A DNA stretch of 64,000 nt, from the IMG/VR virus record IMGVR_UViG_3300023478_000001, positions 7,323 to 71,322 of that record. One strand, given 5' to 3'. Positions 3,791 to 7,118 of the stretch are shown piece by piece. Source of the stretch: a virus. Positions within the stretch are counted from its first letter, which is position 1. The number at the start of each line of letters is the position of its first letter. Both the position numbers and the translations under genes were made by a program. Below the pieces are notes generated by a model. That model was given only the letters and a program-made list of their open reading frames with translations. It did not search any database and was not told where the DNA came from.

Positions 3791-3828
3791 TTTTTGTATT
3801 TAAATTTAGTTTTTATGTATTCTTATTG

Positions 3829-3860
3829 CTAATATACGAATAATTTTTTAATTATCCTAA
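3829..3860 (-). promoter_or_regulatory. Bacteroidota-type early promoter (representative copy; others at 11558, 26620, 33416, 33933, 43515, 63057, 63846)
   Basis: Recurrent TT(A)GGA/TTGTA-N~16-TTCGTATATTT(A/G) upstream of ORFs; resembles the -33/-7 TAnnTTTG consensus (exact TATCTTTG at 33933-33940). Confidence 0.75.
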
Positions 3861-3931
3861 TATTTTTAGTGTTTATTATTTGTTTTTACATGTCATGGTC
3901 ATGACCATACATTATAATTCTATTTAATTTA

Positions 3932-4885
3932 TTAAAAATTAAAAAATTTACTGGCAGTTTTTTGTTCATTAAGTACTAATCCCCATTTTAATACATCATA
4001 AAAATCTTGAAGTTTTCCTAATAATTCTCTTTCAAATATTTTTTCATGATTAATATAAGTATCTATAAATTTTGTTATTTCTGGTGGGTCTTTATATCCA
4101 GTAAATCCTACTGCATCTAATCCAAACGGATTACGTTTTAAATACACCCATTTTATTTTATCGCCGTTTTTCATTGGTGCGTATTTATATGGAGTTTTGT
4201 AATATTTTAATAAATCATTATACGCAATACCAGCTTTAACATGAGCAGGTGCACCCTTTTTAAAATCGAATAATTTTGTGCTCCCAACATTCATATATTT
4301 ACTTAGTTCCTTTACTGCAGAATTTTTAGCTATATCTGTGTTTGATAACTGTATCATCGAACTTTTGAATCCTAATATTATATCTGATATTGTACTTTGC
4401 GGTGTATCTTTTAATATTTCTATAAGTACTTTTGACATTAAATCTTGAAATGCTTTTGGAAATGATGAACGTATTACATCTAACCCTTTAACATCAAGTT
4501 TATCAACAGGTACACCATTATTAGAAATAATCCATTGAGCATATCTTTTTTTGGCTACCCAAAATCCTGCGCGTGCAACATATTCCTTTTTTATTTGTAA
4601 TCTGTGTTGTTGTACATTTAATATTTTATCTGCAAATATATCATAAAATTTATTTAAATAATTTTGCATTTCTCCTGCAATATTATCCACTTTTTTAGCT
4701 ATATTTGCAGGTGTGTCTTGTTCCCATTTAGGGTTTCGGTAGTCTAATAACGGTACTGCCGAAAAAAATACTGAATCTGTATCAATTTTCTCCCCGAAAG
4801 ATTAAACTAACGGGGAGAACGCATCGATATAGATATTGCTATCTACTGTAGCACCACCTATATCGAGTATTTTTTTTATTTTCAT
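3932..4885 (-). CDS. Family B DNA polymerase, C-terminal part (palm motif C and thumb), interrupted by a 42-nt insert with an in-frame TAA
   Basis: ATG 4885 gives MKIKKILDIGGATVDSNIYID[AFSPLV*SFGEKID]TDSVFFSAVP..., in frame with ORF 3932-4690 (KKRY, KGLD motifs). Confidence 0.88.
4781..4822 (-). other. 42-nt hairpin insertion in the PolB catalytic motif (candidate bypass element or micro-intron)
   Basis: 9-bp perfect stem (4788-4796/4811-4819) with a 14-nt loop holding in-frame TAA 4804-4802; flanked by ATC GAT and ATT GAT. Confidence 0.8.
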
Positions 4886-4901
4886 TTATTATATATTTTT
4901 A

Positions 4902-6674
4902 TTAATTTAAAACTAAATCATCATTTGGTTGCAATTCTTTAGCCGGTATTGTTGTTATAATTCCATTACGAGTTATAGTCATTTTAGTATTTGGACTAAT
5001 TTTAATAATTTTATTATTTTCTAACTCAATCTTCATCGGAGTTCCGCCAATTTCTTCATTATATTTAAGATTACACATATTCGCCGTTGACTTAATAATT
5101 AGCTGTCCTGTCGTTGTAACTGCTTCAGCATTTTCTCTATCATAAAAACGAAATGCGGGGAGACCCATTGTGCCATATAAACTATTAAGTAAAATTTTCT
5201 GTACAAGCTGTCGTTTTCCATAAAAATTATATTGTTCACTATCGCCAGATTTACCATATTTTTTCATTAAATTTTTATATTTTACTCGTTGATCAAACCA
5301 TAATGAAAGTATACCTGGAATACAACCTACTATATCTTTTCTGTACAAAACTCCATTAGTTGATACACTATAATCTTGCTCTTTTATAAGTTTAGCTAAG
5401 TTTTCCGAAGTTATAGTATTATTATCAATAGAATATGTTTTATTAGTATTATTTAAAAATTGTTGTGAATCCCAGTTAATAATTTTAGCAATTTTAGTTT
5501 CTGGCGAAATATTTAATGTCATAATAATAGATGGATACAATGATGTTAAATCTAAATCATATATCCAATCATGTTTACCAACTATTGGTTCTTTTACATA
5601 TGCACCAATAAATTTTCCCTTTCCCGCTTCTTTTAATGCTTTCATTTTTTCTCTTCTATCTGCAGGTTTATTAGGAGCAACTAAATTTTTACGTTTTAAA
5701 TAAGTTAATAATGCACCTTCTAAATATTTAGAAGAATATACAAAATCTTCATATGGTACATGACCTGAATGACAAATTCCTCTACATAAATCAATAAATT
5801 GTAGTTTCTTTTCTAATTTTACTACAATTTCAACATCTACTGTATTATATTCGACAAATTTATTAATATCTGTTTGAAATAAATCATCAAGGTTTCCTTC
5901 ATATTCAATTTTACCTTGATTTAGTTCAAGTTTACCAACGGTATCTAATCTATAATTAGGCAATTCATTATAATTGAATTTCTTATATAATGATAAATAA
6001 TCTAAGCAACTTACCCCCGCTAAAAAGAATCTTTGGCGATACGGTGAATAAAATGATTTTCCAATCGGTGATAATCTATTTGCGTAGTCTATTCCTAATA
6101 TTCGTTTTATACGATTAAATAAGTATGGAATATCAAAATAGTCAATATTCCAACCTGTTATAATATCTGGTGCTATATCTTCATATATTTCTAAAAATTT
6201 CAAACACATAGCTATTTCAGTTTTAAACGGTAACACTAATGCCTTTGATGTTTGTTTTGCTTGCATTTTACCGGTTTTATCCATTACAAGTACAACATAT
6301 TTATTACTAATATTATCGTGCAACCCAATAGCAGTCAGCTCGTTAGTTGATTCATTAACATTAGGTAATCCACTTTCCATTTCTACCTCAATATCAAATG
6401 TAAATACTTTAATACCAGTTGAAATTTCATCTGAATCTGTGTAAGTATCTACGAGTACTCTTGTAGTTTCAGGTACATCAGATTCAAAAAGATTAATGTC
6501 ATCCTTTGAAAACTTATATATCTTAGTTAGTTTATCACCATAAATTGATGTGTAACTACCATTAATATTTTTTTCATATGCGTATCGAGAGTATGGAAAC
6601 GAAATATATCCGTTAGTGTCATCCCAGATATGCATTAAATTCTTCTCCCTCTGATAATATATATTTTTATAAAT
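4902..6674 (-). CDS. Family B DNA polymerase, N-terminal part (3'-5' exonuclease, motifs A and B), ending in a Hint-like tail
   Basis: FDIE, GWNIDYFD, YDLDLTSLYPSII, KILLNSLYG; frame is open upstream of ATG 6635 to a possible ATT start at 6674. Confidence 0.93.
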   Translation of the reverse strand: MYKNIYYQREKNLMHIWDDTNGYISFPYSRYAYEKNINGSYTSIYGDKLTKIYKFSKDDINLFESDVPETTRVLVDTYTDSDEISTGIKVFTFDIEVEMESGLPNVNESTNELTAIGLHDNISNKYVVLVMDKTGKMQAKQTSKALVLPFKTEIAMCLKFLEIYEDIAPDIITGWNIDYFDIPYLFNRIKRILGIDYANRLSPIGKSFYSPYRQRFFLAGVSCLDYLSLYKKFNYNELPNYRLDTVGKLELNQGKIEYEGNLDDLFQTDINKFVEYNTVDVEIVVKLEKKLQFIDLCRGICHSGHVPYEDFVYSSKYLEGALLTYLKRKNLVAPNKPADRREKMKALKEAGKGKFIGAYVKEPIVGKHDWIYDLDLTSLYPSIIMTLNISPETKIAKIINWDSQQFLNNTNKTYSIDNNTITSENLAKLIKEQDYSVSTNGVLYRKDIVGCIPGILSLWFDQRVKYKNLMKKYGKSGDSEQYNFYGKRQLVQKILLNSLYGTMGLPAFRFYDRENAEAVTTTGQLIIKSTANMCNLKYNEEIGGTPMKIELENNKIIKISPNTKMTITRNGIITTIPAKELQPNDDLVLN

Positions 6675-7118
6675 AATTTCTAAATTTTAATTGTTATAAC
6701 TTTTTTTCTTACACCGTTTACTACGTTGATGTACTGCTAAATGAGTTGGTGGTAAATTTTTACCGCAAATATTGCATATTGTACGTGGTATGGGGTTTTA
6801 TTAGGTTCAGATATTCGTTATTTATGAATTTAAGATTTTGGTAAACGTAACCAATCATATGAATATGAACCATCTTTATGTTTTTGTGTAATAATAATAT
6901 TCCATAATTACCTTTCTTTGGTAGTAAACATTAACTTTTCTTAAATTTGTTTATTTCTGATATTGGATATCCATCTGGAAAACAAATATATTTTGTAGCA
7001 GTTGGGCTCATGTGTGATAAATTTATTTTATCATTCTCGTTTAGTATTATCATGATTGGTTCATTTTCCGCATCATAAACTGTATTCCTATTTTTACTTT
7101 CATAATTTTATTTATTAT

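What the first reader, a model, noticed from the sequence alone, without database searches (positions are those of the whole stretch)
4781..4828. 42-nt hairpin insert with an in-frame stop inside the PolB catalytic YxD|TDS motif: candidate ribosomal bypass or micro-intron
Seen (minus strand): TAT ATC GAT [GCG TTCTCCCCG TTAGTTTAATCTTT CGGGGAGAA A ATT GAT] ACA GAT TCA. Removing exactly 42 nt restores YIDTDS. The insert has a perfect 9-bp GC-rich stem in an AT-rich genome, a TAA in the loop, and matching take-off and landing codons (GAT/GAT, preceded by synonymous ATC/ATT). Without removal, no product carries the catalytic DTDS. Established: T4 gene 60 hopping and yeast mitochondrial byps use matched codons plus a hairpin, and YxD|TDS is a known PolB intein insertion site. 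Inference: a minimal element skipped in translation or spliced from RNA, which could regulate the polymerase or destroy a homing-endonuclease target. It is too short for a group I or II intron. A structured insertion is unlike the deletion-type errors elsewhere in the contig.
Basis: partly seen in the sequence, partly recalled or inferred. Interest (0 to 1): 0.92.

Follow-up and report, generated by a model that had tools for sequence, protein, structure and literature searches.

The report
Ribosome-hop hairpin in phage polymerase
An uncultured T4-like phage carries 42 untranslatable bases (a tight hairpin plus stop codons) inside the active-site motif of its split DNA polymerase gene, and comparison with relatives suggests ribosomes jump over them, as in the rare phage T4 gene 60 bypass.

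Summary
On the minus strand, 42 nt (4822..4781) sit between GAT (Asp) and ACA GAT TCA of YIDTDS. They hold a perfect 9-bp GC stem, and all three frames are closed by stops. A second assembly at depth 285 shows no differences over 3 kb.

It is not isolated. Inserts of 5, 6, 42 or 43 nt occur at this motif in 9 diverged lineages. All 9 are polymerase genes already split by a homing-endonuclease-type cassette with conserved tails. None of 144 + 50 unsplit relatives has one.

In 9 of 9 insert-bearing lineages, and 0 of 2 insert-free split lineages, the coding sequence just upstream folds into a 13-bp hairpin ending at the Asp codon, with compensatory changes.

The window and L085 (43 nt, not a multiple of 3) have matched GAT/GAT codons, with GAG 6-7 nt before the landing codon.

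Best reading (about 0.55): programmed translational bypass, analogous to T4 mobA/gene 60. This is untested: no RNA or protein data exist.

Main rival: stop plus re-initiation, giving a three-piece polymerase.

This scan has noted the same kind of element before on other DNA. Three paper searches found no report of it in a polymerase gene.

The parts
4902..6635 (-). Polymerase ORF1 (577 aa): exonuclease domain, palm N-part and fingers of a family B DNA polymerase, ending in a 45-aa non-polymerase tail.
   Evidence: PF03104 at E 4.7e-21 and PF00136 positions 14-208 at E 1.3e-27.
4905..5039 (-). C-terminal extension (CTE) of ORF1, PMKIELENNK...DDLVLN. It is absent from unsplit relatives and conserved in all split lineages.
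   Evidence: There is a weak Intein_splicing hit (E 0.0011, 19.2 bits, below the 35.8-bit cut-off).
4886..4901 (-). Short AT-rich spacer between the ORF1 stop and the ORF2 start. This is where relatives carry a homing endonuclease gene; none is present here.
   Evidence: Endonuclease genes sit at this place in L068, L072, L085 and L088.
4823..4885 (-). ORF2 leader: ATG plus 20 codons (MKIKKILDIGGATVDSNIYID). It comprises the N-terminal extension and the polymerase residues DSNIYID, and ends at the proposed take-off codon GAT (4825..4823).
4823..4867 (-). Leader hairpin (5' stem-loop). Its 3' arm is the SNIYID coding sequence and it ends at the Asp codon.
   Evidence: -19.6 kcal/mol, z -6.1. 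Covariation across 9 lineages is shown.
4781..4822 (-). 42-nt coding gap: GCG, a 9-bp GC stem with a 14-nt loop holding TAA, GAG (4792..4790), the 6-nt AU spacer AAAATT, and the landing-type GAT (4783..4781).
3932..4780 (-). ORF3 / resumed polymerase reading frame: TDSVFF... to the stop (palm C-part and thumb).
   Evidence: PF00136 positions 247-411. dN/dS is 0.15-0.20 against L074 and L085.

Best explanation
The 42 nt are a coding gap that ribosomes bypass.

Proposed sequence of events (all steps inferred; none shown by RNA or protein data):
1. ORF2 is translated from its own ATG through MKIKKILDIGGATVDSNIYID.
2. With peptidyl-tRNA-Asp on GAU (4825..4823), the GC hairpin just downstream hinders normal decoding.
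3. The tRNA leaves its codon, and the mRNA slides through the ribosome.
4. Sliding is helped by refolding of the leader hairpin behind the ribosome, whose 3' arm is the SNIYID codons.
5. [quoted passage not shown]
6. Decoding resumes at ACA GAU UCA, giving an intact YIDTDS motif.

Proposed origin: the gap belongs to a cassette that split the polymerase gene (a homing endonuclease gene plus CTE and NTE tails). It most likely persists because it disrupts the endonuclease's DNA target in the conserved motif-C coding sequence. In this phage the endonuclease gene has since been lost.
For: 1. The gap cannot be read through. Each frame has a stop inside it, and the sequence stands in two assemblies at depth 285.

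2. The gene is under selection. ORF3 dN/dS is 0.15-0.20 with saturated dS between insert-bearing lineages. One 5-nt-insert genotype is identical in 5 contigs from 5 metagenome records.

3. Matched codons.
- GAT...GAT here and in L085, where the gap is 43 nt, so only a frame-independent mechanism restores the frame.
- In both, the landing GAT is the only GAY triplet in the gap.
- In the short inserts the triplet before the resumed codon is ACC, ACA or ACT after a Thr take-off codon in 3 of 6 lineages, and ATG or ATT in the other 3. Every landing triplet therefore has C or U at the second position.
- Five further proteins start NTG-TDS, which implies ACN there too.

4. Upstream hairpin.
- It is present in 9 of 9 insert-bearing lineages and ends at the Asp codon. 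It is absent in 2 of 2 split lineages without an insert.
- 93.7% of 111 cells are paired, 4 of 13 pairs changed on both sides, and 1 of 500 shuffles reaches the covariation score. Slid controls pair 12.7-45.2%.
- The sense strand folds better than the antisense strand in 8 of 9.

5. Inserts occur only in split genes. None of 144 unsplit loci or 50 unsplit loci has one.

6. Cassette mobility. The L085/L072 leader is 93% identical (dS 0.13) but ORF3 is 76% identical (dS 1.83).

7. The hairpin core is 28-30 of 32 nt identical among the three hairpin lineages, although leader synonymous sites are saturated. One stem pair changed C-G to A-T, and one is G-T in L085.

8. Match to published bypass features. 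The Manning and Atkins preprint (introduction and discussion read) lists these for T4 gene 60: matched codons including GAU/GAC Asp take-offs, a take-off stem-loop, a 5' stem-loop, GAG 6 nt before landing, an AU-rich 3' gap, a split gene with CTE/NTE tails, and frequent loss of the endonuclease with the bypass kept.
Against: - No RNA, read-level or protein evidence exists. The only run holding the stretch is DNA, kept as contigs.
- L074/L075 keep the 42-nt hairpin but have TAC, not GAY, before ACA. Their only GAT in the gap is in frame at nt 31-33, which would give YID-KMY-TDS. They have ATG two codons before ACA.
- The codon after take-off is not a stop. It is GCG here (4.3 per 1000 codons, only moderately rare), CAT in L085 and TTC in L074.
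- Shine-Dalgarno motifs are rare upstream of this phage's genes (GGAG in 3 of 54), so a role for the GAG is uncertain.
- Several lineages have a possible start codon in the resumed frame: ATT here; ATG in L041, L074 and L252; TTG in L246.
- Bypass alone does not explain why the 14-nt loop sequence is so conserved.
- Protein P0050 reads YIDTQIDS in frame, so either small inserts are tolerated or dead copies exist.
- Only three hairpin-type lineages could be found.
Confidence: 0.55

Rival explanations
1. Stop plus re-initiation gives a three-piece polymerase. ORF2 ends at the TAA in the loop as a 27-aa peptide. Its ribosomes open the hairpin that sequesters GGGGAG and restart at the in-frame ATT (ATG in L074). 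The palm C-part is then made as a separate protein starting (M)DTDS, which assembles non-covalently.
For: - ATT lies directly before GAT ACA GAT, 3 nt after GGGGAG.
- L074 has ATG at the same place.
- L041 reads ACG TAA ATG GAT and L252 reads ACG TGATG GAT, both classic stop-start junctions.
- L246 has TTG overlapping its stop.
- 8 of the 120 proteins listed start M/V/L-(Y)(T)DS.
- The polymerase already works as two pieces in many lineages (33 of 120 listed proteins carry an NTE leader with an intact motif).
- ORF1's own start has a similar GGGAGAAGAATTTAATG context.
Against: - L085 (43 nt) and L072 (5 nt) have no start codon of any usual kind in the resumed frame. L231 and L228 have only CTG.
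- In the 5-nt type the NTG falls out of ACN+TGA by construction, and all four N occur. ATG is therefore not specifically selected.
- ATT is a poor initiator, and the 3-nt spacing to GGAG is short.
- A co-varying hairpin upstream of the stop has no known role in re-initiation.
- Cutting a polymerase between its two catalytic aspartates into a 27-aa peptide and a C-piece has no precedent that I know of (recalled).
Confidence: 0.17
2. The gene is dead or defective. The insert is scar or selfish DNA from endonuclease activity, and the phage relies on another polymerase or on co-infecting helpers.
For: - The record is only 31% complete, so a second polymerase cannot be excluded.
- The split lacks intein catalytic residues.
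- P0050 shows an in-frame disrupted motif.
Against: - ORF3 dN/dS is 0.08-0.20 with intact frames across lineages whose synonymous sites are saturated.
- The same 42-nt gap is kept in lineages only 62% identical in protein.
- Depth is 285 with no variant contig.
- One insert-bearing genotype recurs identically in 5 metagenome records.
- Compensatory changes maintain the leader hairpin.
- No second PF00136 gene is present in the 71 kb held.
Confidence: 0.08
3. Removal at RNA level. The conserved hairpin is recognised by an endonuclease, and the ends are rejoined by a phage RNA ligase (a micro-intron).
For: - The stem and the 14-nt loop are conserved at 28-30 of 32 nt, far above neighbouring synonymous sites. 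This would fit sequence-specific recognition.
- The flanks ATCGAT/ATTGAT pair and bring the two junctions together.
Against: - No Rfam family comes near threshold (best 14.8 bits against gathering scores of 45-56).
- There is no bulge-helix-bulge symmetry.
- The 5-nt and 6-nt inserts at the same motif share the same leader hairpin and cannot be spliced this way.
- No RNA data exist.
Confidence: 0.07
4. Artefact or DNA-level heterogeneity. Either the insert is an assembly error, or functional genomes lacking it coexist through slippage between the ATYGAT repeats.
For: The insert is flanked by near-identical hexamers and forms a hairpin, which favours replication slippage. Contigs drop rare variants.
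Against: - Two assemblies agree with 0 differences at depth 285.
- Homologous inserts stand at the same site in contigs from other samples (L074/L075/L087, L085/L088).
Confidence: 0.03

Closest known systems
Phage T4 gene 39 / mobA / gene 60 cassette with the 50-nt translational bypass (Manning and Atkins preprint 10.1101/2022.08.31.505936, introduction and discussion read; Bonocora 2011 as cited there)
   Same: - An essential replication gene is split next to a metal-binding motif by a homing-endonuclease cassette that adds CTE and NTE tails.
- A stop-containing gap of tens of nt lies a few dozen codons into the downstream ORF.
- Take-off and landing codons match; Asp GAU/GAC variants exist in that family too.
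- There is a stem-loop at take-off and a further stem-loop upstream.
- GAG lies 6 nt before landing, in AU-rich sequence.
- The endonuclease gene is often lost while the gap stays.
   Different: - The host gene is the family B DNA polymerase, not Topo2L. The preprint calls MobA elements exclusive to Topo2L and has 0 occurrences of 'polymerase'.
- The neighbouring endonucleases in relatives carry NUMOD3 and a C-terminal domain that gave no family hit here, not MobA/HNH.
- No stop follows the take-off codon directly.
- The leader is 21 codons, not 46.
- The same site also carries 5-nt and 6-nt versions.
- Homology of the gap to the T4 cassette was not tested.
- Nothing here is shown at the bench.
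byp elements of Magnusiomyces capitatus mitochondria (as described in the same preprint's introduction)
   Same: Both are GC-rich hairpin inserts of 27-55 nt in AT-rich coding sequence. Both are bypassed between matched codons, with a sense codon rather than a stop after take-off and an AU-rich 3' part.
   Different: Those are 81 copies spread over 12 genes of one genome. Here there is one copy at one site, tied to a homing-endonuclease cassette, in a bacterial virus.
Fractured genes: genes split by free-standing homing endonucleases, with or without split inteins (Dassa et al. 2009, PMC2677866, passages read; the paper cites split gp43 of T4-like phages)
   Same: A replication gene sits in two adjacent ORFs with an endonuclease gene between them in relatives. 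NUMOD-bearing endonucleases occur, and the endonuclease can be lost leaving the two halves adjacent. The same window is noted to hold split inteins in other genes (untested here).
   Different: That work describes no stop-containing insert inside a catalytic motif. It mentions bypassing only as an unlikely alternative for the long intervening regions. The tails here lack intein catalytic residues.
Short tRNA hops over a stop codon (early 'hopping' cases, as summarised in the preprint's introduction)
   Same: The 5-nt relatives (ACN, stop, CN) fit a peptidyl-tRNA-Thr re-pairing 5 nt downstream over a slow codon.
   Different: The known cases are low-efficiency or synthetic. Here the pattern recurs in an essential gene with a co-varying helper hairpin. 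The window's own gap is 42 nt, not 5.

Membership tests
Programmed translational bypass (gene 60 type, functional class) | A coding gap that cannot be decoded; its exact removal restores a conserved protein. | tested here: met
   Stops are present in all three frames of the 42 nt. Removal gives YIDTDS, as in 144 of 159 related loci.
Programmed translational bypass (gene 60 type, functional class) | Take-off and landing codons readable by the same tRNA, with no earlier matching triplet in the gap. | tested here: met
   GAT/GAT here and in L085, and the only GAY in each gap is the landing one. Not met in L074 (TAC; GAT at nt 31-33).
Programmed translational bypass (gene 60 type, functional class) | A stable stem-loop at or just 3' of the take-off codon. 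| tested here: met
   A 9-bp GC stem starts 3 nt after GAT. An outer helix pairs UAUCGAU with AUUGAUA. Energy is -26.4 kcal/mol, z -6.1. A similar fold occurs in L085; it is weaker in L074. These are predictions only.
Programmed translational bypass (gene 60 type, functional class) | A stop or very rare codon in the A site at take-off. | tested here: not met
   The next codon is GCG (76 of 17,676 codons counted, 4.3 per 1000; 9% of Ala codons). It is CAT in L085 and TTC then TAA in L074. The stop lies 6 codons on.
Programmed translational bypass (gene 60 type, functional class) | A Shine-Dalgarno-like triplet about 6 nt 5' of the landing codon, in AU-rich sequence. | tested here: inconclusive
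   The sequence is GAG, then AAAATT, then GAT; the spacer is 7 nt in L085. However, GGAG precedes only 3 of 54 ORFs of this phage, and the host is unknown.
Programmed translational bypass (gene 60 type, functional class) | An upstream (5') stem-loop that can refold behind the ribosome. | tested here: met
   Present in 9 of 9 insert-bearing lineages and 0 of 2 insert-free split lineages. 93.7% of cells are paired, 4 of 13 pairs are compensatory, and 1 of 500 shuffles matches.
Programmed translational bypass (gene 60 type, functional class) | A joined protein is made from the two coding segments, and the nascent-peptide signal acts in the exit tunnel. | not testable with these tools
   No RNA or proteome data exist. 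Only a DNA run kept as contigs holds the stretch.
MobA mobile element (homologous family of T4 gene 60) | Insertion in the Topo2L gene with a MobA (HNH) endonuclease or its remnant. | tested here: not met
   The host gene is PF00136 / PF03104 DNA polymerase. No endonuclease gene is present here. Relatives' endonucleases show NUMOD3 only.
MobA mobile element (homologous family of T4 gene 60) | Sequence homology of the gap, NTE and CTE to the T4 cassette. | not tested
Fractured gene / split intein (Dassa 2009) | The gene lies in two adjacent ORFs, with a free-standing homing endonuclease gene between them. | tested here: inconclusive
   The split is met. The spacer here is 16 nt with no endonuclease. 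One is present in L068, L072, L085 and L088. A 103-aa ORF in L246 was not characterised.
Fractured gene / split intein (Dassa 2009) | Split-intein halves with catalytic residues (first Cys/Ser, terminal HN plus a nucleophile). | tested here: not met
   The CTE starts PMK and the NTE ends ...GGATV before DSNIYID. Only a sub-threshold Intein_splicing hit was found (19.2 bits against a 35.8-bit cut-off).
Self-splicing or enzyme-spliced intron | A recognisable intron core (group I or II) or a bulge-helix-bulge motif. | tested here: not met
   The insert is 42 nt. No Rfam match exceeds 14.8 bits, against gathering scores of 45-56. The two junctions sit asymmetrically on the helix.

The most novel reading that the evidence does not exclude
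This would be a second natural family of programmed translational bypass elements, living in the motif-C coding sequence of phage family B DNA polymerases.
- The hops range from 5 nt (Thr to Thr over a stop) to 42-43 nt (Asp to Asp over a GC hairpin).
- All are driven by a co-varying 'pusher' hairpin formed by the codons just translated.
- All are maintained because the gap makes the genome immune to the homing endonuclease that split the gene.
- The nearly invariant hairpin loop may in addition be a sequence-specific control point for how much polymerase is made.
Probability: 0.5. Interest if true: 0.9.

Novelty: new variant of a known kind. Interest (0 to 1): 0.8.

Why it matters
Efficient long-range ribosomal bypass has been shown at the bench only for T4 gene 60 and inferred for one yeast mitochondrion. 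The most recent survey I read found its relatives only in topoisomerase genes.

A second, unrelated set of gaps in another essential gene would be informative for several reasons:
- It has natural variants of 5, 6, 42 and 43 nt.
- It has a helper hairpin whose pairs co-vary.
- It would therefore give a ready-made series for testing what drives take-off, sliding and landing.

It would also show that homing endonucleases repeatedly push their hosts into recoding. On the practical side, it would warn annotators that 'broken' polymerase genes in phage metagenomes may be intact.

Tried and rejected
Dead ends and negative searches:
- RNA evidence: no RNA holder listed. Only X1, a DNA run kept as contigs, held the stretch. 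X2 and X3 laid nothing.
- GenBank phages: only distant hits. blastn gave at most 26% cover at 70% identity. tblastn gave 2 records at 47% and 36% identity. No annotated relative was available.
- More hairpin-type gaps:
  - The loop-specific pattern found only L074/L075 in viral contigs.
  - It found 5 stretches in metagenome contigs. L085, L087 and L088 are real. L084 and L086 are an unrelated terminator-like hairpin between convergent genes.
  - It found 1 chance hit in a Chryseobacterium genome.
  - A loop-free pattern found only L082 (the L075 contig) and an unrelated GC-rich match, L253.
- P0097 (7-nt type inferred from the protein): no relative in viral contigs. The 7-nt types, the M/V/L-TDS types and P0050 therefore rest on protein N-termini only.
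- A second alignment-based scan returned 80 loci, 79 of them new, all uninterrupted.
- Endonuclease family: Pfam gave NUMOD3 only, for L085 and not for L068. PHROGs gave one family of unknown function for L068. The PDB sequence search gave nothing meaningful. The 'Vsr-like' label is therefore my impression of a motif and is not tested.
- Own record: no endonuclease of the L085 type, no tRNA genes, and no second PF00136 gene. The record is 31% complete.
- Hairpin as a repeat family or terminator: it is unique in the window, has no T-run, and is not in the terminator scan.
- Alternative genetic code: rejected. TAA ends 39 of 54 ORFs, and the 43-nt and 5-nt versions shift the frame.
- Paper searches found no report of bypass in a polymerase gene. 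Supplements were closed and not seen. The preprint's supplementary tables could list cases that I missed.
- Not used: structure prediction, complex prediction and the representative-protein search.
Full report
WHAT IS THERE

The window is part of a 71-kb IMG/VR virus record that is 31% complete. It has 28% G+C, and all 54 ORFs of 100 aa or more lie on the minus strand.

Its family B DNA polymerase is in pieces:
- ORF1 (6635..4902, 577 aa) carries the exonuclease domain and the first part of PF00136. It ends in a 45-aa tail that unsplit relatives lack.
- After a 16-nt spacer, a new ATG (4885) opens MKIKKILDIGGATVDSNIYID.
- Then comes TDSVFF... running to 3932.

fixes every coordinate:
- GAT at 4825..4823.
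- Gap at 4822..4781, made of GCG, stem TTCTCCCCG, loop TTAGTTTAATCTTT with TAA, stem CGGGGAGAA, then AATT and GAT.
- Resumption at ACA GAT TCA.
- Each of the three frames has a stop inside the gap.

IS IT REAL AND NON-RANDOM?

The hairpin pattern is unique in the window, with 0 of 100 shuffles matching, and unique in the record. The region folds at -26.4 kcal/mol, z -6.1.

Logan's separate assembly of the one run that holds the stretch gives a contig at word depth 285 that is identical over 3800-6800. That run is probably the source sample, so this excludes an assembler artefact but not a property of the sample.

Independent support comes from other samples:
- L074/L075/L087 carry a homologous 42-nt gap at the same codon.
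- L085/L088 carry a 43-nt one.

CONTEXT IN RELATIVES

- Of the 159 IMG/VR loci examined, 144 are unsplit and read ...DSNIYIDTDSVFF... without interruption. Seven more are uninterrupted but too short upstream to classify, and 2 lacked the motif. L057 has an upstream frameshift. The rest are split genes: L068 (no insert), L041 (6 nt), L072 (5 nt) and L074/L075 (42 nt).
- Of the 71 loci, 50 are unsplit and uninterrupted, 12 lacked the motif (mostly 30%-identity relatives) and 4 were short. L228/L230 and L231 carry 5-nt inserts, and 2 are the L074/L075 contigs again.
- A degenerate pattern for the 5-nt type found 8 stretches. Two were contigs already seen. Five were contigs identical over this region (L246-L251). 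One was L252.
- Some contigs were fetched more than once, so these are counts of loci, not of phages.
- No unsplit gene has an insert. Nine distinct lineages with DNA in hand do, and all nine are split genes with the conserved CTE and an MKIKKI-type NTE.
- Among the 120 best split-length proteins of 636 found, 33 have an NTE with an intact motif. Fourteen start at or in a broken motif, and about 25 start just downstream.

THE CASSETTE

Between the halves, L085 has a 301-aa ORF with NUMOD3 (E 8.6e-13). L068, L072 and L088 have homologues. The window, L074, L231, L252 and L228 have nothing there, and L041 has three small ORFs.

L085 and L072 share the 3' half of the endonuclease gene and the leader at 90-95% identity, while identity declines downstream. 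The figures are leader dS 0.13 against ORF3 dS 1.83. This is the signature of a mobile cassette whose conversion tract ends near motif C.

Yet these two carry different inserts, 43 nt and 5 nt, placed 3 nt apart. This suggests repeated selection to break that DNA sequence.

That the endonuclease cuts there is inferred by analogy with MobA (preprint). It is not shown.

IS THE GENE ALIVE?

- ORF3 dN/dS is 0.15-0.20 between the three hairpin lineages, with dS of 1.5-2.0. It is 0.08 between L085 and L072.
- The leader residues DSNIYID are kept while their synonymous sites are saturated.
- One 5-nt genotype is identical in five metagenome records.
- The 71 kb held contain no second PF00136 gene, but the record is incomplete.

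HOW IS THE GAP HANDLED?

Evidence for a hop:

(a) Matched GAT/GAT here and in L085, where 43 nt rule out any frame-keeping mechanism. The landing GAT is the only GAY in either gap.

(b) In the short inserts the pattern is ACN, stop, then a triplet ACC, ACA or ACT (L072, L231, L246) or ATG/ATT (L041, L252, L228). In every case the landing triplet has C or U at its second position. Protein starts NTG-T-D-S in five further clusters imply ACN as well.

(c) In all nine insert-bearing lineages, the 45 or so nt before the Asp codon form a 12-13-bp hairpin. Its 3' arm is the (S)NIYID coding sequence. The two split lineages without an insert lack it (z -1.5 and 0.2).
- On the alignment A2 with the 13-pair helix, 93.7% of 111 cells pair.
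- Four pairs changed on both sides, for example G-C in 7 and A-U in 2, or G-C in 6 and A-U in 3.
- 1 of 500 shuffles reaches the covariation score, and 17 of 500 reach the number of double-changed pairs.
- Slid controls pair 12.7-45.2%.
- The shuffle baseline is high (89%) because the columns are conserved, so the compensatory pairs carry the weight.
- There are many G-U cells, and the sense strand folds better than the antisense strand in 8 of 9 lineages, L041 being the exception. Both points indicate an RNA structure.

(d) GAG lies 6 nt before the landing GAT, in AU-rich sequence (7 nt in L085).

These are the elements that the Manning and Atkins preprint lists for gene 60 and its relatives. 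They include Asp GAU/GAC take-offs, a 5' stem-loop proposed to drive forward movement, and loss of the endonuclease with retention of the gap. The abstract of Wills et al. 2024 is also relevant.

That prompted my test, and the result here is my own.

WHAT DOES NOT FIT

- L074 keeps the hairpin and the leader hairpin but has ATG TAC where the window has ATT GAT. A Asp-tRNA would find only an in-frame GAT 12 nt early. ATG could instead start a separate C-piece.
- The codon after take-off is not a stop and is only moderately rare.
- Shine-Dalgarno use is rare in this phage, though ORF1 itself has GAGGGAG.
- The 14-nt loop is nearly invariant (28-30 of 32 core positions), which is more than bypass requires.
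- P0050 reads through a 6-nt insert in frame.

Because of these points, stop plus re-initiation (a three-piece polymerase) stays at about 0.17, and I hold bypass at about 0.55.

KNOWN OR NEW?

- The split-with-endonuclease arrangement is known: fractured genes, with split gp43 of T4-like phages cited in PMC2677866.
- Bypass tied to a homing endonuclease is known for T4 gene 60, but is described there as exclusive to Topo2L.
- Three full-text searches found no polymerase case. Supplements were not available.
- This scan's own earlier notes list similar polymerase gaps on other DNA. Those are unchecked AI notes and are not counted as evidence.

I therefore class this as a new variant of a known kind. 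It is well supported by comparison and unproven experimentally.

Noticed in passing
window 4905-5039 (-) and 4844-4885 (-): The CTE of ORF1 gives a sub-threshold Intein_splicing hit (E 0.0011). IGG(T/A) occurs at both borders of the split. The tails may be a degenerate, non-splicing split intein that now only holds the halves together.
   Followed up: partly
L074 48-2777: ORF1 of this relative is 909 aa against 577 here. The extra roughly 330 aa suggest a further inserted element (an intein?) in the same polymerase gene.
   Followed up: no
L068 114-1200: The polymerase N-part of this relative appears to be split once more. A 186-aa ORF ends ...RIDSSRGYIKGNVQWV..., which looks HNH-like by eye, though there is no Pfam hit. 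The polymerase restarts as MIKIELYNK...
   Followed up: no
L085 versus L088: These two contigs share an identical leader and 43-nt hairpin but have different endonuclease genes upstream. L088's is 50% identical to that of L068, not to that of L085. The gap and the endonuclease therefore seem to reassort.
   Followed up: partly
L084 6812-6835, L086, L173 5311-5334: Hairpins with the same CCCCG/CGGGG stem and a similar TTAGTTT...TTT loop occur as terminator-like sites between convergent genes. One is in an unrelated 33% G+C contig and one is in a Chryseobacterium genome. This is probably chance at this pattern length, but the loop likeness is curious.
   Followed up: partly
protein P0050: A split-form protein reads YIDTQIDS. 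This is the 6-nt insert with CAA and ATH in place of TAA and ATG, so it is in frame with no stop. It is either a tolerated 2-aa insertion in motif C or a dead copy.
   Followed up: no
L246 10096-10407: A 103-aa ORF lies between the polymerase halves of the 5-nt lineage found in five metagenomes. By eye it has a small nuclease-like motif (YVADG...IIEF) and may be a minimal or decayed endonuclease.
   Followed up: no
window, whole: All 54 ORFs of 100 aa or more are on the minus strand. GGAG precedes only 3 of them, one being the polymerase ORF1. No tRNA genes are present.
   Followed up: no
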